Shown one piece after another: positions 3,295-23,946 of a DNA stretch of 34,189 bases. Location: NCBI GenBank assembly GCA_016839785.1, contig JAEOTQ010000091.1, forward strand, positions 1 to 34,189, written 5' to 3'. The notes under the pieces were generated by a model. That model did not search any database. It saw nothing but the letters and a program-made list of their open reading frames with translations, and was not told the origin of the DNA. The stretch comes from Candidatus Hodarchaeota archaeon (GTDB taxonomy: Archaea; Asgardarchaeota; Heimdallarchaeia; Hodarchaeales; Hodarchaeaceae). A program made the position numbers and the translations under genes. Within the stretch, counting starts at the first letter, position 1; each line of letters begins with the position of its first letter.

Positions 3295-3891
3295 TTATCC
3301 TCCCTTATCCTCTTGATTAATGAGTGATTTCCAGTTAACAACCCAAGAATTTATTCTTTTTAAAAGAACTGCCTCAAATGCTGTTAAATTGAGTTTTTGG
3401 TGATCAATATTATTACTATCGGATAATTTGATAATTTTTGATAGTCTTTCAGTTATTAGCTGATTAATCCTATCTTTTTGTCGTTTTAATTCTATTTCAT
3501 CATAATGTGAATCGTTAATGTTCGATTTCATTACCTGCTCACTGAATAAAGAATAAAAATAAGGATGAAGCTGTTGTACTTCACCATGTCGTACCTCTTT
3601 TCTCACAGCTGCTGTTAGATCTTGCAATGATAAGGGAAAATCATTTCTAAAATCTTCAATAAAGTTTTCCTTTAATAAAATTTCAGCAATGAAATATGGA
3701 ATATCCAATCTACTGTTTTCGGTGACAGATGGAATTTTAATTCCTCCAAACTCATAACCAGCAAAAGATTTAATAAATTTCACTGAAATAGAACTATCTG
3801 TAAACTCAAATAGTATCCTCTTTAATTCTAACTCCAGTTCTGTATATTCAGATTGAAGATTCTCAGATATTTCGGTGATAATGTTCTCCAC
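3295..3891 (-). CDS. gins23: GINS subunit, Gins23 (Psf2/Psf3-like)
   Basis: N-terminal beta domain (DIPYFIAEILLKENFIE) before a helical domain (QQLHPYFY, ERLSKIIKLS); stop lies 2 nt before the mcm start, the known gins23-mcm arrangement. GTG start. Confidence 0.85.
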   Translation of the reverse strand: MENIITEISENLQSEYTELELELKRILFEFTDSSISVKFIKSFAGYEFGGIKIPSVTENSRLDIPYFIAEILLKENFIEDFRNDFPLSLQDLTAAVRKEVRHGEVQQLHPYFYSLFSEQVMKSNINDSHYDEIELKRQKDRINQLITERLSKIIKLSDSNNIDHQKLNLTAFEAVLLKRINSWVVNWKSLINQEDKGG

Positions 3892-4290
3892 CTAAACTCA
3901 CTATTATAGGGATTTTTCCTCAACAACTAGGGAGGTGAATTTTTGTATTGATGGAATTTCCTTCACGAAAAATGCTTTATTTTCAGAGTTCAGGAAGTTG
4001 ACTCATTTGTGCTGGAAATCCGACCAGTTTTACAAACCCCTTTACAAACGAATTATTTGGGTGATAAGTTAAAAGACCTTCCTTCCCGTATTACAAATAA
4101 ATTACTTCCCTAATCCGGGTTTAATGCTACAAGGTCCTTATATGCGGAGAAGATTCCCCTTTTTCTTTGTGAGATCTGTTTTACAATGTTTACATTTAAT
4201 TAAAGAAAGTTCAAAAGAATATTCAATCATTATTCGCGTTTTAAACAAATAAAATCAACTTTTTACTGCCACACCAAGGGGAGAATTTCA

Positions 4291-5511: not shown

Positions 5512-5612
5512 GTAACTTGTTTCCTTACCTTAATCAGAACCAAACCATTGTGGGGAATTCAAAAGTGATTGCTATGTTATAGAGTCTATCATTATTTTAG
5601 GAACATGAGTAT

Positions 5613-6794
5613 TCAAATATTTTCAGTGCATTGATTCCATACCCCTACTTCCTGCAACTCTTCTTTTAATACTTGAAGATATTGAGAATTTGCTTCATTA
5701 ATCAACGAATGACGCTCAATTTTCAGGGGATCCAATTTATCATCAGTCAATTTCGTACTTACATCTATTTGATAGGTTTTTTTGCAATAATCAATCCATT
5801 CTTGCGGAGCAAATTCGGGAAGAGATATTCCACTAATTCCCGCCAATATAGTCATCCAGACCCTAGCTACAGAGTCAGGATTGTATCCCCCTCCTCCTAA
5901 TAACAATAATCGGCCATTAGCAGAACAATCATCGCTTAACTCAGAAATTCTCTTTCCAAGGTAGTTATATAGATTGGTAGTTAAATTTAAATGGCCTAAT
6001 ATGTCACCAAAATGGCCATCAGCACCACATTGCCAGACTATGAACTCAGGATCATATTCCTTCCAAATACATGGTATTATACTTTCAAAAAGATCCATAT
6101 ATAGATCATCCCAGGTTCCTGGGAATAAGGGTATGTTAATTGTGTAACCTAGGCCTTCTTCTTTCCCAATTTCATCGGAAAGCCCTGTTCCAGGAAATAA
6201 AAATTGTGGTGATTCGTGAATTGAAAGACCAAGTACATTTTTACTGGAATAGAAGGCACTCAATACTCCGTCTCCGTGGTGAACATCGGTATCGATATAA
6301 AGAACTCGATCAATTCCATATACTTCTTGAAGATGTTTGATTGCAATAACTGCATCATTATAATAGCAGAATCCTGCTGCTCTTTCTTCGAATGCATGAT
6401 GTAAACCTGCCATTAGTGAAAAAGCCTGATCAACTTCATCATTCATAATAAGGTCAGTTCCCATTAAAGTTCCACCTACAATGAGGCAAGATGATTCATG
6501 CATTTCAGGAAAGACAGGACAGTCTCCAGTCCCTAATCCATATCGACCATAATAGCCATCTCCTGCCTTAGAAAGTGATTTGACCATTTTGATATAGTTT
6601 TTTGAATGATATCCTAAAAGGTCGTCTTCAGACGCTTCTACTGGGGTGAAATCCACAATAGAATGATTATCGTGAAAATCAAGATTTTTATATAATTGAT
6701 AAGGAATATCCAGTCGCCTTGCATTCATAGGATGCCCCTCCCCTAGATTATACTTAGTGAATCGGTCAGACCAGATTATTCCAGTTTTTTTCAT
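5613..6794 (-). CDS. Zn-dependent deacetylase, AcuC/class I HDAC family
   Basis: GHPM..RR, GDCPVF, GLHHA...AAGFCYYND, DTDVHHGDG, FPGTG, QCGAD, GGGGY. Confidence 0.95.
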   Translation of the reverse strand: MKKTGIIWSDRFTKYNLGEGHPMNARRLDIPYQLYKNLDFHDNHSIVDFTPVEASEDDLLGYHSKNYIKMVKSLSKAGDGYYGRYGLGTGDCPVFPEMHESSCLIVGGTLMGTDLIMNDEVDQAFSLMAGLHHAFEERAAGFCYYNDAVIAIKHLQEVYGIDRVLYIDTDVHHGDGVLSAFYSSKNVLGLSIHESPQFLFPGTGLSDEIGKEEGLGYTINIPLFPGTWDDLYMDLFESIIPCIWKEYDPEFIVWQCGADGHFGDILGHLNLTTNLYNYLGKRISELSDDCSANGRLLLLGGGGYNPDSVARVWMTILAGISGISLPEFAPQEWIDYCKKTYQIDVSTKLTDDKLDPLKIERHSLINEANSQYLQVLKEELQEVGVWNQCTENI

Positions 6795-6999
6795 CTTTAC
6801 AGATCCCTATTGCGATAATCATCGAGATATCATTATTTAAATTCTTCAAATCTTCCCCCTAAGTATCATTCTAAATGTTTACTTAGGTCAAAAAAACCTC
6901 ACCAATAGTGTGAAACGTTAGTTATTTAAGAGGACATTCCAAATTCTTTATTTGATAAACACACCAAATCGCAAAATATAAGGAGAATTGTTTTACTTG

Positions 7000-7575
7000 A
7001 TGAAGAAAAACGCGAAAATTAGTGTATTGGGTCTAGATCGTGCTGGAAAAACTACAATGCTTCAGAGGTTAAAAACTGGCCGATGGATTCCAGATACAAC
7101 TCCAACCATTGGAATGAACGCCGAAACGATTCAAATAGGAGATGTCACTTTTTCTGCTTGGGATCTAGGAGGCCAATTACAGTTTAGACGAGCTTTATGG
7201 GAGATGTACACCAAAAACTCGAAGGGTCTCATTTATGTCATTGACTTAAGCGACCCCGCCCGATTTCCAGAGAGTCGAAATTATCTCTGGAGAATGTTAA
7301 AAATGAACCATCTGAAAAATATTCCATTGGCAATTTTCGCAAATAAAATAGACTTGGTAGATTGTACAGAAGAAGATTTGGCAAATTTTATGGGAATAAA
7401 CAAGAAAATGAGTAGAGTCCTTTCGATTTTCAAAACAAGTGCTTTTTCTGGGGAAGGTATTCATAAAGGAATATATTGGTTAGCTGATGCAATTCAGGAA
7501 GGTAAGCATTCCCCCATGGAATTATATCAAATTAAATCTCTATTTGGAAGAGATACATCAATACTAGCTACGTAA
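7000..7575 (+). CDS. Arf-family small GTPase
   Basis: G1 GLDRAGKTT, G2 PTIG, G3 WDLGGQ..FR.LW..Y, G4 ANKID, G5 TSA. ATG at 7000, alternative TTG at 6988. Confidence 0.93.
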   Translation: MKKNAKISVLGLDRAGKTTMLQRLKTGRWIPDTTPTIGMNAETIQIGDVTFSAWDLGGQLQFRRALWEMYTKNSKGLIYVIDLSDPARFPESRNYLWRMLKMNHLKNIPLAIFANKIDLVDCTEEDLANFMGINKKMSRVLSIFKTSAFSGEGIHKGIYWLADAIQEGKHSPMELYQIKSLFGRDTSILAT

Positions 7576-8295
7576 TTACGCATCAAAAGCGTGTGTTTCG
7601 ATTGCCAATTTTGACTCTGCAAGCGCACGATGGATGAGTTCTTGATCTTCTTTGTACATATGATTTGTATCATGAAACAGCCATTTCTCAGCTTGTTTCA
7701 TATAAGATGGATCCTTGAGAAGATTCGCTTTCAATAATAACTTTACACCTTGGAATACATGACTTTTTACTATTTTTCCAGGAAGATTTGTTCCGAGTTC
7801 TTTCATTAAATGAGTTGCTTGAAAAGCATCTTCGCCCAGAAGAGCACATAGCACCGCACATGAGTATAAACAACTCGCATTCTCATAAAAACTTAGTTCT
7901 AAATGTTTTTCACCAGCAGTAAGATAAGCATCTTTCGCAGCTTTAAATTGTTTTACTACCAATTCTTCAAGGTGTAATACTCTGGGTTTCTGAGGTGGAA
8001 TACTTTTTAGAATAGAACCGAAACCTCCTTCTGTAATTTCTTTTAGAATATCTGAAGTAAGGTCATCTTCAATTAGAAACGTTAATGTTTCATCAACAGG
8101 ACCTATATATGATACTGATTCCTCAAGTAAAGGAGGACGATTTAATATATCCTCAGGTAACGTCGGTGGAGGGGAAAGAATGGGATAATAAACTGATTGA
8201 GAATATATCCTATCTTCTAGGGAGGGAGGCGAGGGTAATTCAGTGGTTGAAACCTTTTGCAATTTTTTTTTGGGACGACGAAGGATGGGGGGCAT
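7576..8295 (-). CDS. Hypothetical protein, Pro-rich N-terminus and helical (TPR/SNAP-like) C-terminus
   Basis: 239-aa ORF with GGAG upstream; LPSPPS, LSPPPTLP, NRPPL, then Ala-rich helices (FKAAKDAYLTAGE...YENASCLYSCAVLC). The fold is inferred. Confidence 0.7.
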   Translation of the reverse strand: MPPILRRPKKKLQKVSTTELPSPPSLEDRIYSQSVYYPILSPPPTLPEDILNRPPLLEESVSYIGPVDETLTFLIEDDLTSDILKEITEGGFGSILKSIPPQKPRVLHLEELVVKQFKAAKDAYLTAGEKHLELSFYENASCLYSCAVLCALLGEDAFQATHLMKELGTNLPGKIVKSHVFQGVKLLLKANLLKDPSYMKQAEKWLFHDTNHMYKEDQELIHRALAESKLAIETHAFDA

Positions 8296-13996: not shown

Positions 13997-14752
13997 ATGC
14001 CTATATTAGAAAATGATTGGATTAAAATTAATTATACTGGCCGTCTAAAGGAAAATTCGAAAGTTTTTGATACAACTCTCGAAGCAGTTGCACGCAAAGA
14101 ACACATCTTTGATGAGAAAAGAGGATACAGTCCATTATTATGCCGAGCGGGTGATGAAAAATTCCTAATCCCTGGGTTAGCACGCCAATTAGTAGGAATG
14201 GATCTTGATAAGCCCCAAACATTTGAAATTCCAGTCAAAGACGCTTACGGGGATAGAGATGCAAGTAAAATTGAAATGGTGCCTACAAAGCGACTTAGAA
14301 AAGCAAATATTGATCCACGAGTTGGGAACCGCGTTCAATTGGCAGGTAGATCTGGAACTATCATTTTTGCAGGCGGAGGACGAACAAGGGTTGATTATAA
14401 TCATCCGTTAGCAGGAAAAAAGTTAGTTTTTGATGTCACGATAGTTGAACAACTTGCTGAAGTCGAAGATATTCAAAAAGAAATCATTTCTCGTCGTCTT
14501 ACTGGTGTAAATCTCGAGGAAGTAGCCATTGAAACTTCAGAAGACCCAAAATCCATTACCATCTCCCTTCCAAATTACTTAATATTTATGGAGGGATTGG
14601 CAATTGCTAAATATACCTTGGGAACGGATCTCCATGAATTTCTTGATTTTGAAGTTGTTAAATTCCAAGATGTTTTTGACTATCAGAAAAAAGAAGAACC
14701 TATTGAAGAAGATTCATCACTAGAAGAGGAAGCCTCTTCCGAAGAAGAGTAG
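13997..14752 (+). CDS. slyD: Long-type FKBP peptidyl-prolyl isomerase (SlyD-like)
   Basis: INYTGR, VFDTT, AYGDRD, GGRTRVDYNHPLAGKKLVF; acidic tail. Confidence 0.93.
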   Translation: MPILENDWIKINYTGRLKENSKVFDTTLEAVARKEHIFDEKRGYSPLLCRAGDEKFLIPGLARQLVGMDLDKPQTFEIPVKDAYGDRDASKIEMVPTKRLRKANIDPRVGNRVQLAGRSGTIIFAGGGRTRVDYNHPLAGKKLVFDVTIVEQLAEVEDIQKEIISRRLTGVNLEEVAIETSEDPKSITISLPNYLIFMEGLAIAKYTLGTDLHEFLDFEVVKFQDVFDYQKKEEPIEEDSSLEEEASSEEE

Positions 14753-14851
14753 GAACCTCAAAAATAAGAAATTAAGAACGAGAAAATAAGCAAATTTTCT
14801 CTCGTGAACAAATTAAAAAATTCGAAAGCTTAGAGGAGTAGAAAAACATCC

Positions 14852-15046
14852 TCACTTAGCTTTAATTTTCGGAACATATTTCTTGGTCCATTTAAACTTC
14901 CGTGGATCACGTTTGAAGTCCAATAAGGAACGTTGACATTTCCGACTACAAAATCGAACCAGTTGTCCGTTTTTACGAACAAAAGACATACCAGTTCCTG
15001 GTTCAACCTCATGGCCGCAATAAGTGCACTCGTATAATCTAACCAT
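14852..15046 (-). CDS. rpl24e: 50S ribosomal protein L24e
   Basis: CTYCG..VEPGTG..FVR..G....FCSRKC, RDPRKFKWT. Confidence 0.97.
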   Translation of the reverse strand: MVRLYECTYCGHEVEPGTGMSFVRKNGQLVRFCSRKCQRSLLDFKRDPRKFKWTKKYVPKIKAK

Positions 15047-15065
15047 TGTATCTACCTTCTTCTTT

Positions 15066-15281
15066 TTATGGACGTTTCAAGTTCCGGGCTTCTCTTTCTG
15101 TTTCTCTTAAGAGGAGCGTATCACCTTTTCTTACAGGTCCTTTTACATTGCGTACGATAATTCGGCCGCGATCACGACCATCTAAGACACGTACACGAAC
15201 TTGAGTGATTTCTCCTGTTACGCCTGTACGTCCAATAATCTGCAATACTTCAGCTGGAATACTGATATTATCCTCACTCAT
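15066..15281 (-). CDS. rps28e: 30S ribosomal protein S28e
   Basis: [34 protein letters not shown]. Confidence 0.98.
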
Positions 15282-15294
15282 TCAAGCAGGCCTC

Positions 15295-15672
15295 TTAAAT
15301 TCCAGCTAGCTCCTTAATTCGAGCTGCAAGATTATCGATTTTAGCTTTTGATTCGCCTTCATTGATAATTGAACAGCTGGCTGTTTTTACACCAAGATTA
15401 CTAGCATTTCCCAGAATCTCTTTACTAGTCACATATAGATATGGGATCTTTTTATCTTTACACAGGAGGGGAATGTGTGCTACAATTTCAGGTGGGTCTA
15501 CATCTAATGCTAGGAATACTAGCTTAGCATTTCCACGTTCGATACTTTTTGTCGTTTCATTCGTACCTTTTCGAATATTGGATGGATCAGCACTAACCGC
15601 CTCCAATACCGTCAAAGCATCATTTTCAAGCCCTTCAGGCTGTTCATAATTTACATAGAATGGTTTACTCAT
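15295..15672 (-). CDS. rpl7ae: 50S ribosomal protein L7Ae
   Basis: IRKGTNETTKSIERG.AKLV, DVDPPEIVAHIPLLC. Confidence 0.98.
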   Translation of the reverse strand: MSKPFYVNYEQPEGLENDALTVLEAVSADPSNIRKGTNETTKSIERGNAKLVFLALDVDPPEIVAHIPLLCKDKKIPYLYVTSKEILGNASNLGVKTASCSIINEGESKAKIDNLAARIKELAGI

Positions 15673-15874
15673 GTTTATTTCGACCTCCAGGGTCTAGGAC
15701 GTAAGAAATTCCACTTCATCTGAAAAAGATAGAGCAAAATATTTCTAATTTCGGTTTAAATTCAACCCAATCCTTGGTCGGGCAATTGAATCAGCCTAAA
15801 TTCAAAGATAAAAAGTTTTAGCTCAAGTTTTATTCCGAATTCATCTTTATCCTAATTTCTCTTGAGTTTTCTAT

Positions 15875-17011
15875 TCAATTTGGTCGAGAAGAATACTCTC
15901 TTGGATCAATTCCATAAGCTCTTAACAAATCAGCCGTTTTTCCAGAGATAATAAGAGGTACTGATTTTAAATCTTCAATGGTTTGGCATCCAGTTAAGAA
16001 ACAGGTCAGTTTTATTTGATAAGCTATTTCGTCAATATATTTCAGCGATTTTTCGATCGAATGATCCTGTATAGCAAAAAGGAATGGAATAGCCATTCCA
16101 GCGGCATCTGCTCCAAGCGCTAGAAGTTTTGCAACTTCCATTCCATTTCTAACACCCCCAGATCCAATTATATGCCCGTTAAACGATTCTTTTGCAAAAA
16201 TAGTACTGATTGCTGTAGGAAGTCCCCAATCCCAAAAGACTTCTCCTGCTTTCTTATATATTGGATCTTCTGCCCTAATAGATTCAACACCAGCCCACGA
16301 TGTACCCCCCGCACCTTGAATATCAATTCCTGAAAAACCTGATTTCTTCAATCGTGTAATATCAAATCGACTAAATCCTGAACCTACCTCTTTTGCAATA
16401 ATCGGAGTTGAGGATTCATTAATTAGCTGTGTAACCTTTTCAATCAATTCGTGAAGGTTTGTATCACCATCAGGTTGTATTGATTCTTGTAATGGATTAA
16501 AATGAAATGCAATTGCATCTGCGCTAATCATTGAAACGATATCTTTCAAATCCGTTGAATTCAATCCTTCTACTATCTGTCCTGCACCAATATTACCAAT
16601 TTTAAGCGTCTTAGGGGCATTTTTTTTCACAATTTCAAATGATTCTCGAGCTTGAGTATCTTCCAGGGCAGCTCGTTGACTTCCGACACCCATCCCTATT
16701 CGTGTTTTTTCTGCTACCTGGGAAAGAAAATCATTAAGTTGTTGTGCAAATGAATGGCCACCAGTCATACCTGAAATGATCAATGGAAATTGTAATTTTT
16801 TTCCAAAAATTTTTATTGATAGATCTATATCTTCCATATTGAGATCTGTAGTCGCATGATGTACAAAAGAAATATCTTCCAAACCTGTGGTTATATTACG
16901 ACTTTGAACATCATGTTCAAGACATATCTGTAGATGAGCGAGTTTGCGTTCAGAAGTCATGGTATTTTCTTTTTTCTCATCAATTTCCTGAGGTGAGTTC
17001 TTAGATTCCAT
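15875..17011 (-). CDS. fni: Type 2 FMN-dependent isopentenyl-diphosphate isomerase
   Basis: RKLAHL, SGMTGG, GVGSQRAA, HFNPLQE, KEVGSG, GAGGTSWAGVE, WDWGLPT. Alternative ATG at 16960. Confidence 0.97.
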   Translation of the reverse strand: MESKNSPQEIDEKKENTMTSERKLAHLQICLEHDVQSRNITTGLEDISFVHHATTDLNMEDIDLSIKIFGKKLQFPLIISGMTGGHSFAQQLNDFLSQVAEKTRIGMGVGSQRAALEDTQARESFEIVKKNAPKTLKIGNIGAGQIVEGLNSTDLKDIVSMISADAIAFHFNPLQESIQPDGDTNLHELIEKVTQLINESSTPIIAKEVGSGFSRFDITRLKKSGFSGIDIQGAGGTSWAGVESIRAEDPIYKKAGEVFWDWGLPTAISTIFAKESFNGHIIGSGGVRNGMEVAKLLALGADAAGMAIPFLFAIQDHSIEKSLKYIDEIAYQIKLTCFLTGCQTIEDLKSVPLIISGKTADLLRAYGIDPREYSSRPN

Positions 17012-17053
17012 TCCTGGTACACTTCTTAATGGTATTTTTGGCTATTAAAATAA

Positions 17054-17632
17054 TTATTCGGATTCTAGGACACTATTCCATCGTGTATATTTATCATTGG
17101 GTATATTGAAACAATCCAATATCTTACCCGAAATAAAATCGAATAAATCCTGAATCGTTTTTGGCTGGTGATAAAATCCAGGACTAAGAGGAAAGATTAT
17201 TGCACCATATAAAGAAAGTTGATTTAGATTATGGAGACATCCTGGACTTAAGGGAGTTTCTCGGATTCCGATAATTAATGGTTTTCTCATCTTTAACATT
17301 ATATCTGCTGCTCGAGATATTAGGTTTCCAGTATTTGCTGTTGCAATATTGCTAACAGTTTTGACCGTGGCTGGAATTACAACCATACCATCAACAATCG
17401 TAGAGCTACTTGAAATTGCTGCACTCATATCATTCTCTTTATAAAGATGGTCAGGCAACTGTTGAAAATCGTCTAATGTGCTAAATGACTCATTCTCTAT
17501 TAGATGTTTCGCCCATTTACTAATAATGACATGAGTCTCAACATCATGAGAGGATAGAGCTTTTATTACTTCAATTCCATAATCTATTCCAGAAGCTCCG
17601 GTTAAAGCAACAATAATTTTTTTAGGCTTCAA
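17054..17632 (-). CDS. ubiX: Flavin prenyltransferase UbiX
   Basis: ALTGASG, NLISRAADIMLK, RETPL, PGFYHQP; TTG start with GGAG upstream. Confidence 0.93.
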   Translation of the reverse strand: MKPKKIIVALTGASGIDYGIEVIKALSSHDVETHVIISKWAKHLIENESFSTLDDFQQLPDHLYKENDMSAAISSSSTIVDGMVVIPATVKTVSNIATANTGNLISRAADIMLKMRKPLIIGIRETPLSPGCLHNLNQLSLYGAIIFPLSPGFYHQPKTIQDLFDFISGKILDCFNIPNDKYTRWNSVLESE

Positions 17633-17781
17633 TAAATCAATCTCCAGTATAGACCTAACACTTGAAATTCTTTGGTTTAATAAAATGCTACTACGGAAAT
17701 AACTTCATTATGATTAAATCAATTTTATTGAGATTAATTAAATAATATTTGTTCTACATACTCTTTATGGTTATGATGTTA

Positions 17782-18774
17782 ATGAAAGCAACTGCAATTG
17801 CAAATTCCAATATTGCACTAGTAAAGTATTGGGGAAAAAGAAATTCCGATTTAATGTTGCCTCACAATTCGAGTGTCTCAATGACATTAGATAATCTTAA
17901 TACAATGACAACAGTGGAGTTTAGTGAGAATTTTTCCGAATATGAGTTGAAAATTAATGGGAAAACTGCAAAGGGTGAAGAATTAAAAAGAGTAGCAACG
18001 CACCTAGACCTCTTGCAGGATTCATCCCCTCAGAAAAGATTTGCAAAGATTATGAGCGAAAGTAATTTTCCTAAAAAAGCTGGATTAGCTAGTTCGGCCT
18101 CTGGATTCGCAGCTTTGACTTTAGCAGGGACAAAAGCTTTGGGCCAAAATCTTACATTGAAAGAATTAAGCATTTTATCAAGAAGAGGAAGTGGGAGTGC
18201 GTCTAGAAGTATTCTTGGAGGATTTGTTGAATGGATTAAAGGTTCTCTATTAGATGGCTCTGATAGTCATGCTATCCAAATTGAAGAAGAAGGACACTGG
18301 CCAGAGCTTTCGATGATTGTTACTATTATATCAACTGAGGAAAAAAAGGTCTCCTCTCGTGCTGGGATGAGTCAAACAGTGAAGACTTCCCCTTTTTATG
18401 ATGCATGGTTGGACACAATTGAGTCTGATGTTGAAAAAATGAAACAAGCAATTACAAAAAAGAATTTCACTTTATTAGGAAAAATTGCTGAAAATAATGC
18501 GCTTAAAATGCATGCAACCATGCATACAACAATTCCACCCATACTATATTGGGAATCAGGGTCATTATCCATTATGAAAGAAGTATTAAAGCTCCGAGAG
18601 GAGGGAACTGAATGCTACTTCACTATGGATGCAGGACCACAGGTAAAAATTTTATGTCAACAAAAGGACTTAGAAACAATAAAATCAAGGGTTACTGAAT
18701 TAGATTTAGTTAAAGATATTATAATTTGCCATCCAGGTGGCGAGGCAAGATTAATTGAAGACCATTTATTTTGA
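17782..18774 (+). CDS. mvaD: Diphosphomevalonate decarboxylase
   Basis: ANSNIALVKYWGK, GLASSASGFAAL, RRGSGSASRS, KKVSSRAGM, FTMDAGPQV. ATG 17782 matches the family N-terminus. Confidence 0.93.
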   Translation: MKATAIANSNIALVKYWGKRNSDLMLPHNSSVSMTLDNLNTMTTVEFSENFSEYELKINGKTAKGEELKRVATHLDLLQDSSPQKRFAKIMSESNFPKKAGLASSASGFAALTLAGTKALGQNLTLKELSILSRRGSGSASRSILGGFVEWIKGSLLDGSDSHAIQIEEEGHWPELSMIVTIISTEEKKVSSRAGMSQTVKTSPFYDAWLDTIESDVEKMKQAITKKNFTLLGKIAENNALKMHATMHTTIPPILYWESGSLSIMKEVLKLREEGTECYFTMDAGPQVKILCQQKDLETIKSRVTELDLVKDIIICHPGGEARLIEDHLF

Positions 18775-18795
18775 AATTCTGATGGAAGTCAAATC

Positions 18796-19911
18796 ATGAT
18801 TACTGTTTCAGCACCTGGTAAACTTATGCTCTCGGGTGAATGGAGTATACTAGAGAAAAATGTTAGGTGTATTGTTCTTGCAGTTCAACAGAGAGTTTTT
18901 GCCGCAATTCGACCTGAAGAGAGAATATCTATTCATTTGAAAGATTTTAACTTAACCTCAAGATGCCACTACTCTGACGGGGGTCTTTCTTTTAATATCG
19001 AGGATGGAAGACTAATTTTTGCAAAACACGCAATCGAATCTGCTCTAAGATATTTAGAAACGAGAAATATTCCGATACAACCTTTTTACTTGGAGACCTG
19101 GGGAGAAATCAGCATGGTAAAGAATGAGGAAACAGGACAGAAAATGAAGGTAGGGTTCGGGAGTAGTGCAGCTGCTGTTGTGGCAATTATAGCTGCTGTA
19201 TTACAATATCACACTGATTCTAATTTCACACAGCAAGATAAAGAAGTAATTTTCAAACTCAGCATAATTTCCCATTTCTTAGGGCAAGGAAAACTCGGAT
19301 CTGGATTTGATGTTGCCGCATCCACATTTGGTGGAGCTCTTATTTATAGGAAATTTGATCCAGACTGGCTACAACAGAAGATAACAAATGAACCCTTGAG
19401 TAAATTAGTCAATGAAGATTGGCCTCTATTGCAATACATACCAATAAGCTTGCCAGCAGAACTTGTGATGATGGTTGGGTTTACGGGAACGAGTGCTTCT
19501 ACAACAAAACTAGTTCAAGAAATGAAGCTGTATAAACAGAAATATCCTGATGGTTATTTTACTATAATTTCTAGAATTGCCGATGTAACTGAACAATTAA
19601 TAGAAGCCATTAAATCCAAGAATCAGTTATCAATCCTAAAATTACTCGACCAAAATAGAATTTTATTAGAAGAATTAAGTTTTGCCTGTTCGTGTCATTT
19701 GGAAATAGAAGCCCATCAAATCATGAGTCATACAGCTTCAAAATATGGAGCTGTAGCTAAATTTTCAGGTGCAGGAGGCGGAGATTGCAGTGTCGGAGTT
19801 TGTTTTAATGAATTAGATGCCGCCATAATTATCGAAGAATGGACAAAAAATGGGATTATGCCAATTGATATTGAATTTTCAAACGAGGGATTAAAAATAG
19901 AAAAAGAGTAG
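18796..19911 (+). CDS. Phosphomevalonate kinase, GHMP (ERG8/MvaK2) type
   Basis: SAPGKLMLSGEW, KVGFGSSAA, QGKLGSGFDVAASTFGG..Y.KF, GFTGTSAST..LV, KFSGAGGGDC. Confidence 0.88.
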   Translation: MITVSAPGKLMLSGEWSILEKNVRCIVLAVQQRVFAAIRPEERISIHLKDFNLTSRCHYSDGGLSFNIEDGRLIFAKHAIESALRYLETRNIPIQPFYLETWGEISMVKNEETGQKMKVGFGSSAAAVVAIIAAVLQYHTDSNFTQQDKEVIFKLSIISHFLGQGKLGSGFDVAASTFGGALIYRKFDPDWLQQKITNEPLSKLVNEDWPLLQYIPISLPAELVMMVGFTGTSASTTKLVQEMKLYKQKYPDGYFTIISRIADVTEQLIEAIKSKNQLSILKLLDQNRILLEELSFACSCHLEIEAHQIMSHTASKYGAVAKFSGAGGGDCSVGVCFNELDAAIIIEEWTKNGIMPIDIEFSNEGLKIEKE

Positions 19912-19918
19912 AAGAGAT

Positions 19919-20308
19919 CTAAATTATCTCTACTACTCCGTTTGTACCATCAACGTATAATTTCATTCCAGTTTCGATTTTGCTGACATCTATTTGATCA
20001 ACACAAGGAATTTCAGAAATTATCGTGCCTACCGCAACGATCGCTTCACAATCATTAAGAACCAGTGCTTTTGGACCTTTTCCTGTCATAGCCATTTGAT
20101 AAATCACATAAGATCCTACTGTGGATCCTTTACCTGAAGGAAACACAAGAATCTTTTCATTGATACTTATTCCTTCCAATTCATGCCCTTTTTCGACAAC
20201 AACACCAGTTTCTGGATCGACACCGCCATAAAACGAAATACTGTCTTTTGTAACTAAAGCCTCGCCTGTAGCTTCTCCTTTATAGATTTTTCGACCTGTT
20301 AATTTCAT
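19919..20308 (-). CDS. Phosphomevalonate dehydratase small subunit (AcnX swiveling domain, DUF126)
   Basis: GEALVT...ISFYGGVDPETG, HELEG, GKGSTVGSYV; coupled to the large subunit. Confidence 0.93.
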   Translation of the reverse strand: MKLTGRKIYKGEATGEALVTKDSISFYGGVDPETGVVVEKGHELEGISINEKILVFPSGKGSTVGSYVIYQMAMTGKGPKALVLNDCEAIVAVGTIISEIPCVDQIDVSKIETGMKLYVDGTNGVVEII

Positions 20309-21489
20309 TATGATAAAGCCTCCTCAAGACATTCATCCATTGACATTAATTTCACTGCAAACTTGTTCCGTCCTGATCCATAGTAACACATCTTTGCAGA
20401 ATCAGAGGCCAAGCCATGAAAACGCCCTTTGATCGGGGCCACTACACAGCAGGTATCCGCTGCAATTTTTGCACCAGAATCTTCAATCAGCTTCGTGAAT
20501 CCCATTCGATCAGCGATTTGTTTGGTTGGTCGAGCAGTGGTGATCCAGACTTCCTTCTTGGGGTTAATTGATTTTCCTTCTAACTTCTTGGCGATATACT
20601 CTAATTCCTTGAGGGAGGCATGAGGACAACCTAAACTAATGAAATCAATTTCGGTCTCATCGTCTAAATCTCCAAGAGCTTTCTTCATATCTTCCTCGGT
20701 AACAGTCTCTACTGTGTCAGGAACTTTGTTAACTCGATTTGGAGTAATATCTTTCATGTGAAATAACGCAACACCACCGTAAGTGGCATATGAGGCACAA
20801 AAGGATTTCAGCTCTTCTACTGAAGCCTTGGGGATCCCAGTAATATAAGTAATTTTTTTACCAAATCGATCTCCAAGTACTTTACCTAAGGCCCCGAATC
20901 GATAGGTATCCTTCACCTCGCATTTGACTTCGACAGTGAGTTCTGGTTGTCGATTTTCCTCAAGGTGAAATCCGTATTCAGGAGTCTTTCCAACAAGAGC
21001 GGCACTTAATGCACTTGGTCCTCCTTCACGATTGGTTTTGGCACCTAACACCGAATTGGCATAACAAACAGCAGAGCTCTCACTCCAGGAAATATGCTGG
21101 CCGTATGCAGGAAGATTGCCATATAGATAGGGAGTACAAGAACATGTCGTTATCACGCCCAACCTCCCAAAAGCCTCTATTACTCGTTGTTGATTTTCTG
21201 CGAACTCTTCACTAATAGCTAATTTACGCCATTCTTCTAAATCCATTCCTGCTGGATTTAAGGTCGTGAAAACCCGAACCTTTCCATCTTGTGCCATATT
21301 TTCAAGCCAAGATAGACCTGGTTCGTTCAAATTTGCATAACTCACACCAGCAATTTGTACAGAGGTAATATCAATTAATTTCTCGGCTCCGTAAATTTCT
21401 CCAAGAGTGATGAGAATATCCATAGCAGTTTGCGTTGCTTTACCGTATTTCCCTGCCGCCATATCTTGTTCTTCACGTGTTAATTCCAT
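20308..21489 (-). CDS. Phosphomevalonate dehydratase large subunit (AcnX, DUF521)
   Basis: AGVSY.NL, TTLNPAG, TCSCTPY, WSESSA...ANSVLGAKTNREGGPSAL, LGCPHAS, DTCCVVAP, SDSAK. Confidence 0.94.
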   Translation of the reverse strand: MELTREEQDMAAGKYGKATQTAMDILITLGEIYGAEKLIDITSVQIAGVSYANLNEPGLSWLENMAQDGKVRVFTTLNPAGMDLEEWRKLAISEEFAENQQRVIEAFGRLGVITTCSCTPYLYGNLPAYGQHISWSESSAVCYANSVLGAKTNREGGPSALSAALVGKTPEYGFHLEENRQPELTVEVKCEVKDTYRFGALGKVLGDRFGKKITYITGIPKASVEELKSFCASYATYGGVALFHMKDITPNRVNKVPDTVETVTEEDMKKALGDLDDETEIDFISLGCPHASLKELEYIAKKLEGKSINPKKEVWITTARPTKQIADRMGFTKLIEDSGAKIAADTCCVVAPIKGRFHGLASDSAKMCYYGSGRNKFAVKLMSMDECLEEALS

Positions 21490-21501
21490 ACCTAAACCTC
21501 T

Positions 21502-22812
21502 TTATTCATCTAAGTAGTCTTTTAAATCCACTTTAGGGAATTCTGCTCGTGCAAAGCTTTTACCTTTAGTTTTAAGGGGAGCAGTTAAGTCAAACCCAAT
21601 TTTATTTGTAAGTTTCGTTCCGGGTTCGGCACTGGGATCTAAGCTTGATCCAGGTTCTTTTCCAATATCGACTAAATCTCTCTCAGCTTGAAAACGAGTC
21701 GCCATTGACCATTCTACATCGAGAGGGTCATAAATATTGATGTCTTTGTCAACAACAAAGACGTGCTTGCAGCTTCGATGTCCTTGAAAAGCTGCATGGA
21801 TTGCTGTTTTGCCATCCTCTTCTTGTTTCTTATCAATTTTAACAATTGCATGCAACCAGGAAGAGCCACCAGGATTTACATTTACATCAATACAGGTTAC
21901 TCCTGCTTCGTTCACAGTTTTGAAAATCGTGGGTTCACGTGGCATTCCCATCAAGACTTTATGTTCTAATGCCCCAGGAATCAATGCTTGCCATATTGGA
22001 TTCTTCCTATGGGTAATATTTTTTACTTCAAACACAGGTTCGTCCCGAATAACATCGTAAGTTTCAGTTAAATCAATGAATGGTCCTTCATCTGATCGGT
22101 CTTTCATAAATACCCGCCCTTCAAGTACTACTTCGCAACCCGCAGGTATTAGAACATCAACAGATTTTGCTTTCACCACTTGAGTCGGAGCTAAGGCATT
22201 TGCAATTTCTAGTTCATTTATTCCAGTTTTTACTGAAGTTGCTGCTGCCACTAGAACATTAGGTGTATTTCCCACACAATAAACTGCATCTACTTCTCCA
22301 GTTCTTTCTAGAAATTTATAGAAATCTCTTCCCTTAATGATTCTCGTACTCATTCGGTTTTTTGAAAACTGCATGGCCCGATGAAAATCTAAGTTCTGCC
22401 CATATTCGGGATCTTTAGTCACAACAACTGCAGATGAAATATAACGGCCTCCATCTCTCTCATTATGTTTTAAGATAGGTAACTTGTCTAAATCCACTTG
22501 TTCCATGACTACTTCTTGACATGGAGCACTTGTAACCTCTTCAGGTGGACTCCTGTTATCTATGGCTTCCGTTAATTTTGGTATGAGTTGATCGGTAGAG
22601 ATTCCAAAATAATCTGCGATACTTATTTTCGTACTAAAGATATTTCCTGCAACACGAAAGTCTGGATACCCCTTTACATTTTCAAATAAAATAGGGGTTG
22701 GTTCAGCTGTTTTCAACACAGCAGCTGCCTCGATATCTATATCAACATTCTTTTTAATTTTAGTAATTCCATTCTTCTTTTCTAATTGAGTTACATACTC
22801 TCGAAAATCCAT
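21502..22812 (-). CDS. ubiD: UbiD-family decarboxylase, likely trans-anhydromevalonate-5-phosphate decarboxylase
   Basis: DGGRYIS, NLDFHR, EGPFIDLTETYD, VVDKDINIYD..DVEWSMATRFQ, GSSLDPS; lies between mvk and acnX. Confidence 0.9.
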   Translation of the reverse strand: MDFREYVTQLEKKNGITKIKKNVDIDIEAAAVLKTAEPTPILFENVKGYPDFRVAGNIFSTKISIADYFGISTDQLIPKLTEAIDNRSPPEEVTSAPCQEVVMEQVDLDKLPILKHNERDGGRYISSAVVVTKDPEYGQNLDFHRAMQFSKNRMSTRIIKGRDFYKFLERTGEVDAVYCVGNTPNVLVAAATSVKTGINELEIANALAPTQVVKAKSVDVLIPAGCEVVLEGRVFMKDRSDEGPFIDLTETYDVIRDEPVFEVKNITHRKNPIWQALIPGALEHKVLMGMPREPTIFKTVNEAGVTCIDVNVNPGGSSWLHAIVKIDKKQEEDGKTAIHAAFQGHRSCKHVFVVDKDINIYDPLDVEWSMATRFQAERDLVDIGKEPGSSLDPSAEPGTKLTNKIGFDLTAPLKTKGKSFARAEFPKVDLKDYLDE

Positions 22813-22845
22813 TTTCCATTACACCTTCGTTATTGGATACTAAAT

Positions 22846-23784
22846 TTAAACTCCAATTTTTGTTTTCCAAGCTGCAAATCCTGCATCCTTCAATGCATTG
22901 TAAACTTTATCTTGAAGATCTGCTCCTGGAGTTAATGCATTAATATTTCCTCCGCGTCCTGTACCTGTAACTTTAGCGCCCAATGCGCCTGCATCGGTAG
23001 CAATTTTTACCATCTTATCCAATTTTTCATTAGAAACAGTAATTTTTTGTAATAACTCATGATTTTTATTCATGAGCTTGCCTACCTTCTCTAAATCCAT
23101 CATCTCGAGTGCGTGACGTCCATCCTTAACTACTGATTTGTACTCTTTGACTATCTCCTCAAACCACTTGGGATTCTCTTCTTTCTTTTCACGCACATCA
23201 GCAACAACGACACTCGTATTCGCAGTCATTCCTGAACTGGCTATCACCATGTCAACAGGCTTGGAAAGTTTGATGGTTTCCATCGTATTCGGACCCCCGT
23301 GTAGGTTTTTCACAAAATAGACTAATCCTCCAAATGTTGAAGCTGTGTTATCAATCCCACTTGGAGTTCCATGATACCCTTTTTCTCCTTCGTAAGCCGA
23401 TTCATTTATCCGAGTGTCATCCCATCCCATTTGGAATTCGTCACTGATTGCCCTCGCTAATGCTACACAACTCGCTGCAGATGCTCCCACACCACTGGCA
23501 CAAGTTAAATTTCCACCTAGAGTGATTTTTAATTTTTCTTTATCGAGATCTACGCCCATAAAGGTTAAAACATTTTTTATCGAAATTTTCTGCTCGTCAA
23601 ATTTCTTTTTTTTATACCCTGGCACTTCAGGCCGATTATCACTCAGTTCATATCCCTTACCCTCTTCAATTTCAACGATTGCTTCTGTGAAATCTCCAAT
23701 TGCAGAAGCCATGGCAGGCAAACCATAAACTACAAAATGTTCGCCGAAAAGTATCGTTTTACCAAATCCAGAACCTTTTCCCAT
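22846..23784 (-). CDS. mvk: Mevalonate kinase
   Basis: GKTILFGEHFVVYG, ASGVGASAA, YHGTPSGIDN, GALGAKVTGTGRGG. ATG 23784 with GGTGG upstream. Confidence 0.95.
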   Translation of the reverse strand: MGKGSGFGKTILFGEHFVVYGLPAMASAIGDFTEAIVEIEEGKGYELSDNRPEVPGYKKKKFDEQKISIKNVLTFMGVDLDKEKLKITLGGNLTCASGVGASAASCVALARAISDEFQMGWDDTRINESAYEGEKGYHGTPSGIDNTASTFGGLVYFVKNLHGGPNTMETIKLSKPVDMVIASSGMTANTSVVVADVREKKEENPKWFEEIVKEYKSVVKDGRHALEMMDLEKVGKLMNKNHELLQKITVSNEKLDKMVKIATDAGALGAKVTGTGRGGNINALTPGADLQDKVYNALKDAGFAAWKTKIGV

Positions 23785-23946
23785 TTTTATTTTCCACCTA
23801 AATCTTATCTTAGCCAAATTTCCTTGTTATTGGATGAATTAATTGATCTTTATCGATATTTTCAGATGAAAGTTTTTCCTCACTTGTCTTTTTTTGTCTA
23901 GCTAACTGAGAAAAGTTGAAAAAAAAAAGGATATCTGCGTATAAGT

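What the first reader, a model, noticed from the sequence alone, without database searches (positions are those of the whole stretch)
15875..23784. Two alternative lower mevalonate routes interleaved in one cluster
Seen: minus-strand mvk-ubiD-acnXL-acnXS and ubiX-fni, with a plus-strand mvaD-pmk pair between acnXS and ubiX; all frames intact. Known: AcnX+UbiD+UbiX form the archaeal (Aeropyrum-type) route from mevalonate-5-P to isopentenyl phosphate, using an Fe-S dehydratase and prenylated FMN; PMK+MVD form the classical eukaryote-type route, which uses only ATP and is rare in archaea. Organisms normally have one route. Inference: a branched system at mevalonate-5-P, possibly switching between an ATP-saving, oxygen-sensitive route and an oxygen-tolerant one, or a snapshot of the archaeal-to-eukaryotic pathway replacement in an Asgard lineage.
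Basis: partly seen in the sequence, partly recalled or inferred. Interest (0 to 1): 0.9.

Follow-up and report, generated by a model that had tools for sequence, protein, structure and literature searches.

The report
Two mevalonate routes, one gene cluster
An Asgard archaeon's isoprenoid gene cluster encodes both the archaeal and the classical way of turning phosphomevalonate into isopentenyl diphosphate; the coexistence is real, but it has already been reported for this group of archaea.

Summary
Eight intact genes lie at 15875-23817: mvk, ubiD, acnXL and acnXS, then ubiX and fni, all on the minus strand, with a plus-strand mvaD-pmk pair between them. Isopentenyl phosphate kinase and HMG-CoA reductase lie elsewhere in the genome.

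MvaD carries the residues that mark diphosphomevalonate decarboxylases. The kinase scores as a phosphomevalonate kinase and branches with them. AcnX keeps its three Fe-S cysteines.

The locus is chromosomal in an Asgard MAG. The same junctions recur in three other species, so it is not an assembly chimera.

Coexistence of both routes in Asgard archaea, the oxygen argument and the eukaryogenesis reading are already published (PNAS 2021). The same-contig arrangement in Hodarchaeales is published too (Microorganisms 2024).

New here:
- All 22 genomes of the genus keep the archaeal genes. Only 7 carry the mvaD-pmk pair, in two orientations, and one more keeps a pmk relic.
- The pair is monophyletic within the genus and under purifying selection.
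- Its nearest relatives are small-genome archaea and one bacterium, not other Asgard.

It is best read as an accessory ATP-driven bypass that is often lost.

Side finding: some sibling species carry a 34-36 nt insert that looks like a bulge-helix-bulge intron in acnXL.

The parts
15875..17011 (-). fni: type 2 isopentenyl-diphosphate isomerase (IDI2)
   Evidence: TIGR02151 379.9 bits, cut-off 281.3. Pfam FMN_dh.
17054..17632 (-). ubiX: flavin prenyltransferase, which makes prenylated FMN for the UbiD-type decarboxylase
   Evidence: NF004685 199.1 bits (cut-off 188) and TIGR00421 194.1 (108.9). Pfam Flavoprotein.
17633..17781 (.). AT-rich divergent spacer between ubiX and mvaD; inferred promoter region for both units
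   Evidence: Sequence read. GC of 17001-18000 is 0.324, the lowest in the window. The promoter role is inferred and not tested.
17749..18774 (+). mvaD: diphosphomevalonate decarboxylase (DMD/MVD). The ORF starts at TTG 17749; the likely start is ATG 17782.
   Evidence: TIGR01240 336.2 bits (cut-off 171.35); the PMD model gives 180, below its 475 cut-off. Best solved relatives are MDDs at 248-276 bits. DMD-type Lys, Arg and Met positions and the DAGP aspartate are present. dN/dS is 0.07-0.095.
18796..19911 (+). pmk: GHMP-type phosphomevalonate kinase
   Evidence: TIGR01220 216.1 bits, cut-off 165.7. It lies inside the 53-row PMK clade, support 99. dN/dS is 0.04-0.07.
19906..19938 (.). Hairpin across the convergent stop codons of pmk and acnXS: a 13-bp stem with one mismatch and a 7-nt loop. 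It resembles a two-way terminator.
   Evidence: Sequence. Folds on both strands give z -4.0 and -3.9, with a U-run after the stem on the minus strand. The function is inferred.
19919..20308 (-). acnXS: small (swivel) subunit of phosphomevalonate dehydratase
   Evidence: PF01989 112.7 bits. NF003046 178.8 bits, cut-off 163.
20308..21489 (-). acnXL: large subunit of phosphomevalonate dehydratase (AcnX type II)
   Evidence: PF04412 490 bits. 339.6 bits to 7CNR/7CNS, the T. kodakarensis MVA5P dehydratase, against 198-202 to cis-3-hydroxyproline dehydratases. All three Fe-S cysteine ligands align to cysteines.
21502..22812 (-). [quoted passage not shown]
   Evidence: TIGR00148 354.1 bits (cut-off 244.85) and three UbiD Pfam domains. 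It lies next to acnXL-acnXS in all relatives examined, out to another class and a non-Asgard archaeon. The substrate is inferred from this context.
22846..23817 (-). mvk: mevalonate kinase. The ORF starts at TTG 23817; the likely start is ATG 23784.
   Evidence: TIGR00549 231.3 bits, cut-off 163.05. Start inferred. It groups with the MVKs of other Asgard genomes, support 100.

Best explanation
This is the native chromosomal lower-mevalonate cluster of an Asgard archaeon. The class and order (Heimdallarchaeia, probably Hodarchaeales) are inferred, not named by any tool.

It encodes the complete archaeal route:
- MVK makes mevalonate 5-phosphate.
- The Fe-S dehydratase AcnX (large and small subunits) makes trans-anhydromevalonate 5-phosphate.
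- The UbiD-type decarboxylase, supplied with prenylated FMN by UbiX, makes isopentenyl phosphate.
- IPK, on another contig, makes IPP.
- IDI2 makes DMAPP.

A two-gene classical module sits inside this cluster. PMK makes mevalonate 5-diphosphate, and the ATP-dependent decarboxylase DMD makes IPP directly. The pathway therefore forks at mevalonate 5-phosphate.

The archaeal branch is the core one: every genome of the genus keeps it. The classical pair is an accessory cassette.
- It entered the lineage once, as a unit.
- It is kept under purifying selection where present.
- It has been inverted in the window's lineage, so it now has its own divergent spacer and a hairpin at its end.
- It has been deleted repeatedly in sister species.

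Its likely use is a bypass that costs one more ATP per IPP but needs neither the oxygen-sensitive [4Fe-4S] dehydratase nor prenylated FMN.

Shown: gene identities, signature residues, synteny, distribution, selection and phylogeny. Inferred: both branches are active, the pair acts on MVA5P and MVA5PP, and any condition-dependence.
For: Identities and residues:
- Searches give the gene identities and signature residues.
- IPK: NF040647 153.3 bits against a 120 cut-off, on contig C247.
- HMGR is on contig C130.
- There is one AcnX and one MVD in the genome.

Distribution in the genus:
- The cluster DNA matches in 22 of 22 genomes.
- MVD is over its cut-off in 6 of 22. PMK is found at E<=1e-20 in 5 of 22.
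- tblastn adds the pmk 3' end at a contig edge in G190 and a pmk C-terminal relic with an in-frame stop in G130 (E 1e-10).
- In 12 genomes without the pair, the acnXS-ubiX interval was read on one contig.

Orientation:
- Inverted in G000, G107, G203, G119, G136 and G190.
- Collinear in G201, and the G130 relic is collinear too.

Selection, from pairs among G000, G107 and G203:
- pmk 0.04-0.07 and mvaD 0.07-0.095.
- For comparison: ubiX 0.05-0.07, fni 0.08-0.10, ubiD 0.02-0.035, acnXL 0.02-0.06.

Phylogeny:
- The genus MVDs form one clade, support 97 in two trees.
- The genus PMKs form one clade, support 100.
- Both genes have the same nearest neighbours, L052, L054 and L053. Support is 99 for PMK and 85-88 for MVD.
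- MVK groups with other Asgard MVKs.

Oxygen:
- The archaeal dehydratase is reported to be sensitive to O2 and H2O2 (PMC10040528, passages read).
- G000 has cytochrome bd oxidase.
Against: - No enzyme assay or transcript exists for any of these genes. No RNA run was available.
- The pair is dispensable: 14 of 22 genomes lack it and one more has only a relic. In the G119 assembly, pmk has a 1-nt deletion after a T5 run.
- dS values of 0.7-3 are partly saturated, so the dN/dS ratios are approximate.
- The oxidase association is weak. It is 7 of 7 with the pair against 9 of 15 without. My own arithmetic gives one-sided p about 0.07. Five of the seven are one clade, and the genomes are incomplete.
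- AMPD identity rests on family membership and gene context. It was not placed next to a characterised enzyme in a tree.
- G201's collinear order spans a contig break.
Confidence: 0.7

Rival explanations
1. The pair is a functionless leftover of a horizontal transfer that is decaying. Only the archaeal route works.
For: - The pair is missing from 14 of 22 genus genomes.
- G130 keeps only a relic.
- G119's pmk has a 1-nt deletion.
- The slot between acnXS and ubiX is variable. In G207, G212 and G062 it holds an adenine-deaminase-like gene.
Against: - Both genes are intact in G000, G107 and G203.
- dN/dS is 0.04-0.095, like the neighbouring essential genes.
- Catalytic and substrate-binding positions are conserved.
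- The G119 deletion sits beside a homopolymer run and may be an assembly error.
Confidence: 0.15
2. MvaD is really a phosphomevalonate decarboxylase (haloarchaeal-type route) that feeds IPK, and the neighbouring kinase has another substrate.
For: - IPK is present.
- Decarboxylases of this family are often misnamed, as PMC11052028 notes.
- The copies embedded in the same kind of cluster in family f13 have phosphomevalonate-type residues and no PMK next to them.
- The Anaerolinea enzyme scores nearly as well as true MDDs, 249 against 248-276 bits.
Against: - The window's protein has Lys where the Anaerolinea wild type has Asn, and Met where it has His. These are the two positions changed in the engineered variant 6N0Z (meaning taken).
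- It also has the Ser-Arg pair of MDDs.
- The PMD model scores 180, below its 475 cut-off.
- The kinase passes the PMK equivalog cut-off and branches inside the PMKs.
- The two genes travel together in all relatives.
Confidence: 0.1
3. The pair descends vertically from the Heimdallarchaeial ancestor shared with eukaryotes. The locus is then a surviving intermediate of the archaeal-to-eukaryotic pathway replacement.
For: - A related family, f6, has MVD plus a kinase and no detectable AcnX in 3 of 3 genomes. The class therefore spans archaeal-only, mixed and classical-only states.
- PMC11052028 and PMC8237579 argue for this scenario.
Against: - The genus MVD does not group with the f6 MVD. The AU test of one clade gives p 0.026, although the group was named after the tree was seen.
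- The nearest relatives are small-genome archaea and a bacterial MAG.
- Solved eukaryotic MVDs score 155-179 bits against 248-276 for bacterial ones.
- The PMK matches the Gram-positive model rather than the ERG8 model, which gives 122.7 against a 377 cut-off.
- No eukaryotic sequence could be put in my trees.
Confidence: 0.1
4. The interleaving is an assembly or binning artefact that joins DNA of two organisms.
For: The genome is a fragmented MAG: 248 contigs, 84.5% complete, 3.4% contamination.
Against: - The same junctions occur in three other species-level assemblies.
- An independent run's contigs bridge ubiX|mvaD in G107.
- Core archaeal genes lie on both sides on the same contig.
- Only 7 bases separate the convergent stop codons.
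Confidence: 0.01

Closest known systems
Hodarchaeales MAG clusters reported in 'Expanded Archaeal Genomes Shed New Light on the Evolution of Isoprenoid Biosynthesis' (PMC11052028, 2024)
   Same: PMK and DMD are encoded together with AMPD and AcnX on one contig of an Asgard (Heimdallarchaeia) genome. Their phylogeny also shows these sequences intertwined with bacterial and DPANN ones (passages read).
   Different: The paper gives one sentence and a supplementary figure (Fig. S5) that I could not open. From what I read, it does not report the within-genus presence/absence, the two orientations, the relic or the selection analysis. Whether this very MAG was in their set is unknown.
Archaeal (Aeropyrum-type) mevalonate pathway: PMDh (AcnX), AMPD (UbiD), UbiX, IPK
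   Same: All components are present. AcnX has two subunits and keeps its three Fe-S cysteines. It is closest to the T. kodakarensis enzyme crystallised with MVA5P.
   Different: Here a second, ATP-driven branch is embedded in the same cluster.
Classical mevalonate operons of Gram-positive bacteria (mvk-mvaD-pmk-fni)
   Same: The mvaD-pmk adjacency and order are the same. The TIGR01240 and TIGR01220 equivalog matches and the best solved relatives also agree.
   Different: The pair forms its own clade with two small-genome archaea and one Deferrimicrobium MAG, outside the Bacillota clade. The MVK and IDI2 beside it are the native Asgard ones.
Decarboxylase embedded in the archaeal cluster of another Asgard family (f13; matches the paper's description of Lokiarchaeia order CR-4)
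   Same: A member of the MVD family lies directly after acnXS in a ubiD-acnXL-acnXS-mvaD-mvk cluster. This was seen in 4 of the 6 f13 loci examined.
   Different: There is no pmk. The residues are phosphomevalonate-type: Asn or Arg instead of Lys, Asp instead of Arg, and His or Ile instead of Met. That enzyme would duplicate the dehydratase/decarboxylase step rather than open a diphosphate branch.
Sulfolobales classical pathway
   Same: An archaeon with DMD and PMK.
   Different: The Saccharolobus DMD (5GMD) scores only 168.8 bits. The Sulfolobus-type PMK model NF040957 gives 95 bits against a 500 cut-off. These are different lineages of both enzymes.

Membership tests
Diphosphomevalonate decarboxylase (DMD/MVD) | Passes the curated equivalog model and not the models of its sister enzymes | tested here: met
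   TIGR01240 336.2 bits against a 171.35 cut-off. PMD model NF040704 gives 180 against 475. MBD model NF040847 gives 60.6 against 560.
Diphosphomevalonate decarboxylase (DMD/MVD) | Residues that fit the diphosphate substrate: Lys in YWGK, and Met rather than His after the Ser-Arg motif | tested here: met
   The window has K and SSRAGM. The Anaerolinea wild type (6N0X) has N and H, and its engineered variant (6N0Z) has K and M. The primary paper (Thomas et al. 2019) was not held.
Diphosphomevalonate decarboxylase (DMD/MVD) | Catalytic aspartate in the DAGP motif | tested here: met
   D294 is invariant in 14 of 14 Asgard copies and aligns with the DAGPN motif of solved MDDs.
Diphosphomevalonate decarboxylase (DMD/MVD) | ATP-dependent decarboxylation of mevalonate 5-diphosphate | not testable with these tools
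   Needs an enzyme assay.
Phosphomevalonate kinase (GHMP type) | Passes the equivalog model and branches with PMKs, not MVKs | tested here: met
   TIGR01220 216.1 bits against a 165.7 cut-off; the MVK model gives 85 against 163. It lies inside the 53-row PMK clade, support 99, in a 133-row GHMP kinase tree.
Phosphomevalonate dehydratase (AcnX type II) | Two separate subunits, large plus swivel | tested here: met
   PF04412 490 bits and PF01989 112.7 bits on adjacent ORFs that overlap by one base.
Phosphomevalonate dehydratase (AcnX type II) | Three cysteine ligands of the Fe-S cluster (Cys110, Cys283, Cys342 of TkAcnX large subunit) | tested here: met
   All three align to cysteines in the window's protein. 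The ligand numbering is from PMC8184944.
Phosphomevalonate dehydratase (AcnX type II) | Closer to the MVA5P dehydratase than to cis-3-hydroxy-L-proline dehydratases | tested here: met
   339.6 bits to 7CNR/7CNS against 198-202 bits to 7CNP, 7CNQ and 7D2R. The NCBIfam hydroxyproline model gives 279.6 against a 700 cut-off.
[quoted passage not shown] | UbiD-family fold with all three domains, and a UbiX partner | tested here: met
   TIGR00148 354.1 bits, PF20695, PF01977 and PF20696. ubiX is in the same cluster.
[quoted passage not shown] | Groups with characterised AMPDs (Aeropyrum, Methanosarcina) rather than aromatic-acid decarboxylases | not tested
   No characterised AMPD sequence or structure was available. 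The best solved relative is an unrelated-function UbiD enzyme, 6H6V, at 283.8 bits. The only support is the conserved ubiD-acnXL-acnXS adjacency.
Isopentenyl phosphate kinase | Passes the curated model somewhere in the genome | tested here: met
   NF040647 153.3 bits against a 120 cut-off, at G000:C247:2706-3503.
Asgard archaea (host assignment) | Eukaryotic signature proteins absent from other prokaryotes | tested here: met
   VPS28 gives 43.7 bits against a 24.5 cut-off, with no hit in the 14 control genomes. An Arf-family GTPase in the window gives 161.4 bits. Profilin was not found, but that search rang nowhere. The order name Hodarchaeales is inferred only from the match to the published pattern.
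Bulge-helix-bulge intron (side finding in relatives' acnXL) | 4-bp helix flanked by two 3-nt bulges, with outer helices | tested here: inconclusive
   The CUGG:CCAG helix, the 5' AAA bulge and the inner hairpin are present. The 3' AAU lies opposite two unpaired bases, giving a 2x3 loop, which is a relaxed form. 92.6% of cells pair, against 25-46% when the partner is slid. Three pairs have compensatory changes, but only six sequences are available.
Bulge-helix-bulge intron (side finding in relatives' acnXL) | Removal restores the reading frame, and the host has the splicing endonuclease | tested here: met
   Cutting out nt 244-279 gives a 393-codon ORF without stops in G107, G119 and G190a. dN/dS among these copies is 0.016-0.057. 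Two EndA paralogues are found in 5 of 5 genomes examined.
Bulge-helix-bulge intron (side finding in relatives' acnXL) | Spliced RNA observed | not testable with these tools
   No RNA holder was listed.

The most novel reading that the evidence does not exclude
The genus is caught in a live and possibly reversible pathway replacement. The PMK-DMD pair is a selectable cassette that lets (micro)aerobic members make IPP without the oxygen-sensitive Fe-S dehydratase. It also removes the need for prenylated FMN, whose own prenyl group comes from this pathway's product. Inverting the pair in the window's lineage uncoupled it from the archaeal operon, so it can be regulated on its own. Related families show the two end states, archaeal-only and classical-only. 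A bolder sub-reading is that eukaryotic DMD and PMK descend from this cassette; I put that at about 0.1.
Probability: 0.3. Interest if true: 0.65.

Novelty: already known. Interest (0 to 1): 0.4.

Why it matters
Which mevalonate route the archaeal ancestor of eukaryotes used, and how the classical route replaced the archaeal one, is part of the open question of how eukaryotic membranes arose. This locus does not add a new kind of system, because the coexistence is in print.

What this genus offers is a natural experiment. Closely related species differ only in whether the classical pair is present, inverted, collinear or deleted, while the archaeal genes never go missing. That makes three things testable:
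- the cost and benefit of the bypass, by comparing expression or growth under oxic and anoxic conditions;
- the enzymes themselves, by assay;
- the order of evolutionary events.

The intron-like insert in acnXL of sibling species, if it is spliced, would be a third archaeal gene with an endonuclease-removed mRNA intron, and the first in Asgard archaea.

Tried and rejected
- The primary paper on decarboxylase specificity (Thomas et al. 2019) is not held. I relied instead on two papers that cite it and on the wild-type and variant chains in the PDB.
- The organism's name could not be obtained. The order assignment is therefore an inference.
- No eukaryotic MVD or PMK sequence could be brought into a tree. 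The link to eukaryotes is untested here.
- Expression: no RNA holder was listed.
- Laying contigs of four DNA runs on G107 gave short pieces only. None is listed as bridging pmk|acnXS, several bins have no cover, and no joint appears at the acnXL insert.
- The profilin search found nothing, but that model rang in no control genome either.
- The sigma-70 promoter scan gave fewer sites than shuffles did and does not apply to archaea.
- Inverted repeats that could explain the inversion: none is convincing. The best is 24 nt at 79% complementarity.
- The covariance model of the insert found only its six training copies in 22 genomes. Only 150 of roughly 750-3500 candidates per genome were scored.
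- My first dN/dS run failed for mvk, because codons upstream of the true start were included. It gave meaningless values for G107 acnXL because of the insert. acnXL was redone; mvk was not.
- The oxidase comparison is not significant and the genomes are not independent.
- For the IQ-TREE run I kept 38 of the 80 genome-contig loci, chosen by hand to represent each clade. The other 42 were dropped to save time. The FastTree run used all 96 rows.
- Supplementary figures S5 and S6 of PMC11052028 could not be seen. They may show this very arrangement.

Full report
WHAT IS THERE. Curated models name them without ambiguity.
- IDI2: TIGR02151, 379.9 bits (cut-off 281.3).
- UbiX: NF004685, 199.1 (188).
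- Diphosphomevalonate decarboxylase: TIGR01240, 336.2 (171.35).
- Phosphomevalonate kinase: TIGR01220, 216.1 (165.7).
- AcnX small subunit: NF003046, 178.8 (163).
- AcnX large subunit: PF04412, 490 bits.
- A UbiD-family decarboxylase: TIGR00148, 354.1 (244.85).
- Mevalonate kinase: TIGR00549, 231.3 (163.05).

Orthologues show that mvk most likely starts at the ATG at 23784, and mvaD probably at the ATG at 17782. The ubiX-mvaD spacer is AT-rich. The stop codons of pmk and acnXS are 7 bases apart, inside a 13-bp hairpin that folds on both strands with z about -4.

THE GENOME. The window is contig C43 of a 4.04-Mb MAG with 248 contigs, 84.5% complete and 3.4% contaminated.
- The rest of the window is core archaeal machinery: MCM with an intein, GINS, Orc1/Cdc6, ABCE1, Tsr3, L7Ae, PGK and a topoisomerase. 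It also holds an Arf-family GTPase.
- The genome encodes VPS28, which none of the 14 control prokaryotes has. The host is therefore an Asgard archaeon.
- IPK (153.3 bits, cut-off 120) and HMG-CoA reductase lie on other contigs.
- There is a single AcnX and a single MVD.
- No tool names the organism. I infer Heimdallarchaeia, probably Hodarchaeales, because the gene patterns of this genus and of a second family match the published description of Hodarchaeales and of Lokiarchaeia order CR-4.

ARE THE ENZYMES WHAT THEY SEEM?

The decarboxylase:
- Its best solved relatives are MDDs at 248-276 bits. Eukaryotic MVDs score 155-179 and the Saccharolobus DMD 169. Apart from 5GMD (named), I recall the organism names of these PDB entries; they come from no call.
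- The Anaerolinea phosphomevalonate decarboxylase (6N0X) and its engineered variant (6N0Z) differ at two positions: Asn to Lys in YWGx, and His to Met after the Ser-x motif.
- The 2024 paper names a conserved lysine of DMDs and a conserved histidine of PMDs. Aoki et al. 2022 state that this mutagenesis converts PMD specificity into DMD specificity.
- The window's protein has Lys, Ser-Arg and Met, and the catalytic aspartate of DAGP.
- The copies in family f13 have Asn or Arg, Asp, and His or Ile. The f5 copy has Gln and His. The three f6 copies have Lys, Arg and Met.

The kinase lies inside a 53-row PMK clade (support 99) in a 133-row GHMP kinase tree, while the window's MVK groups with other Asgard MVKs.

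AcnX large subunit scores 339.6 bits to 7CNR/7CNS, the T. kodakarensis enzyme crystallised with MVA5P. It scores about 200 to hydroxyproline dehydratases. Its three Fe-S cysteines are conserved.

The UbiD protein could not be compared with a characterised AMPD. Its assignment rests on family membership and on the invariant ubiD-acnXL-acnXS adjacency.

DISTRIBUTION. In an even sample of 201 genomes of the phylum, 14 have an MVD over the cut-off.
- 4 belong to this genus.
- 3 belong to family f6. AcnX was not found in any of the three, and MVD lies next to a weakly PMK-like kinase.
- 1 belongs to f5. It is PMD-like and groups with Chloroflexota copies; AcnX is present.
- 6 belong to f13. These are PMD-like. 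In 4 of the 6 loci the gene is embedded as ubiD-acnXL-acnXS-mvaD-mvk without a pmk.

All 22 genomes of the genus have the archaeal genes. MVD is over its cut-off in 6 of 22 and PMK is found in 5 of 22. Reading the loci gives four states.
- Inverted pair, as in the window: G000, G107 and G203 on one contig each. G119 has it with ubiD-mvk on a second contig. G136 has mvaD at a contig edge, divergent from ubiX. G190 has the pmk 3' end at a contig edge.
- Collinear pair: G201, as mvk>ubiD>acnXL>acnXS>mvaD | contig break | pmk>ubiX>fni.
- Relic: G130 keeps the last ~54 codons of pmk, with an in-frame stop, in the collinear position.
- No pair: 14 genomes. In 12 of them the acnXS-ubiX interval was read directly. 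It is 30-133 bp in eight. It holds an adenine-deaminase-like ORF in G207, G212 and G062, and 4 kb of other DNA in G211.

A five-gene locus tree puts the five close inverted copies in one clade, G201 with G130, and G136 among genomes without the pair.

HISTORY AND SELECTION.
- The genus MVDs are one clade: support 97 in a 96-row FastTree and again in a 54-row IQ-TREE mixture-model tree.
- The genus PMKs are one clade, support 100.
- Both genes have the same nearest neighbours: an Aenigmatarchaeota single-cell genome, an unclassified archaeon and a Deferrimicrobium MAG. The pair has therefore moved as a unit. The two archaeal neighbours have genomes of about 1 Mb in which AcnX was not found.
- Holding the genus MVDs together with the f6 MVDs costs 31.7 log-likelihood units (AU p 0.026). 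I named that group after seeing the tree.
- dN/dS among G000, G107 and G203 is 0.04-0.07 for pmk and 0.07-0.095 for mvaD, the same range as ubiX, fni, acnXS and acnXL.
- The simplest history is one acquisition before the sampled lineages with the pair split, maintenance by selection, at least one inversion and several deletions. The relic shows that at least one absence is a loss.

THE OXYGEN IDEA. The archaeal dehydratase is reported to be sensitive to oxygen and peroxide. Many members of this genus have terminal oxidases. All 7 genomes with the pair have COX1 or cytochrome bd, against 9 of the 15 without it. This agrees with the idea but does not establish it: my arithmetic gives about p 0.07 one-sided, five of the seven are one clade, and the MAGs are incomplete. 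A further point from general knowledge, not tested here: the UbiD step needs prenylated FMN, whose prenyl group comes from this pathway's own product, and the classical pair has no such dependence.

WHAT IS KNOWN.
- Hoshino and Gaucher 2021 (PMC8237579; passages read) already state that Asgard archaea have homologues of both pathways and that one archaeal enzyme is inhibited by oxygen. They suggest that a chimeric pathway may reflect the archaeal-to-eukaryotic divergence.
[quoted passage not shown] It also says CR-4 has DMD homologues without PMK.

The finding as given is therefore already in print. The within-genus polymorphism, the orientations, the relic, the selection figures and the congruent MVD and PMK neighbours are additions, as far as the passages I read show.

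SIDE FINDING (not in the window). In six copies of acnXL from five sibling genomes, a 29-36 nt insert sits at exactly one site: 36 nt in G107, G119 and one G190 copy, 34 nt in the other G190 copy and in G212, and 29 nt in the G211 copy. The genomes are G107, G119, G190 (two copies), G212 and a fragment copy in G211. The site corresponds to window 21246/21247, between the codons for NPAG and MDLEEW.
- The insert carries a stop codon, or in the 34-nt copies breaks the frame.
- Cutting it out leaves a clean 393-codon gene. dN/dS among insert-bearing copies is 0.016-0.057.
- The RNA folds into an exon-exon helix, a 2x3 loop holding AAU, a CUGG:CCAG helix, an AAA bulge and an inner hairpin whose sequence varies but keeps pairing. 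Fold z-scores are -2.3 to -6.8.
- Symmetric cuts in the two loops would restore exactly the intron-less sequence.
- Two EndA paralogues are present in 5 of 5 genomes checked.
- The model of the insert finds no other copy in the genus.
- A 2023 review counts two archaeal genes with endonuclease-spliced mRNA, cbf5 and HVO_1309. My searches turned up no Asgard case.
- No RNA data were available.

I put about 0.6 on this being a spliced, relaxed bulge-helix-bulge intron. The alternatives are a split gene that re-initiates at the conserved Met, or recent inactivation.

VERDICT. As a finding it is already known. Residual interest lies in the natural presence/absence series and in the intron-like insert of sibling species.

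Noticed in passing
Relatives only: L037:7419-7469(-), L050:11144-11194(+), L133:931-981(+), L135:6043-6091(+), L138:11647-11695(-), L039:17748-17791(-). The empty site in the window is at 21246/21247.: A 29-36 nt insert (36 nt in three copies, 34 nt in two, 29 nt in the G211 fragment copy) sits at one fixed site of acnXL in 6 copies from 5 of 22 genus genomes. It carries a stop codon or a frameshift, yet the gene is otherwise intact and under purifying selection. The RNA fold looks like a relaxed bulge-helix-bulge intron with compensatory changes, and two EndA paralogues are present. It would be a rare archaeal mRNA intron, and I found none reported for Asgard archaea. No RNA data were available to show splicing.
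   Followed up: partly
window 2-3292 (-): The MCM helicase gene is interrupted by an intein with a LAGLIDADG homing-endonuclease domain (Intein_splicing 87 bits, LAGLIDADG_3 86 bits). The ORF runs off the window's end.
   Followed up: no
window 6988-7575 (+): An Arf-family small GTPase (PF00025, 161.4 bits), a eukaryotic signature protein, lies next to a histone-deacetylase-family gene.
   Followed up: no
L143 (G209) 898-1818 and L144 (G102) 965-1906: In the two basal genomes of the genus, the mvk at the head of the cluster is only 34-36% identical to the window's MVK, while ubiD and acnXL are about 70% identical. The kinase has apparently been replaced there.
   Followed up: no
L032:5871-7850 (G207), L138:8159-10111 (G212), L142:3280-5232 (G062): The slot between acnXS and ubiX, which holds mvaD-pmk in the window, holds a 650-659 aa adenine-deaminase-like amidohydrolase in three genomes. 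The slot is a hot spot for gene exchange.
   Followed up: partly
L036:7507-9276 (G203); L039:4334-12911 and 14474-18460 (G211): G203 has 1.8 kb with two ORFs of no known family between acnXL and ubiD. G211 has 8.6 kb between ubiD and acnXL, including a MIT-AAA ATPase (Vps4-like). It also has 4 kb with a 984-aa unknown ORF and a duplicated acnXL fragment.
   Followed up: partly
L105 (uncultured archaeon LFW-281_7), 822-8200: A small-genome archaeon outside the Asgard has mvaD>ubiX>ubiD>acnXL>acnXS>mvk on one strand. A Micrarchaeia genome (L129) also has both an MVD and an AcnX. A decarboxylase of this family beside the archaeal route is therefore not confined to Asgard archaea.
   Followed up: partly
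L050:13534-13638 (G119) and L035:6376-6642 (G206): Single-base frame breaks appear in pmk of G119 (a deletion after a T5 run) and in ubiD of G206 (two overlapping tblastn pieces). Either could be real or an assembly error.
   Followed up: partly
L133 and L135 (G190); L137 and L138 (G212): G190 carries two acnXL-acnXS copies on different contigs. In G212, two contigs end inside acnXL, one with the insert and one without. This suggests strain mixtures or duplications that break the assemblies at this gene.
   Followed up: no
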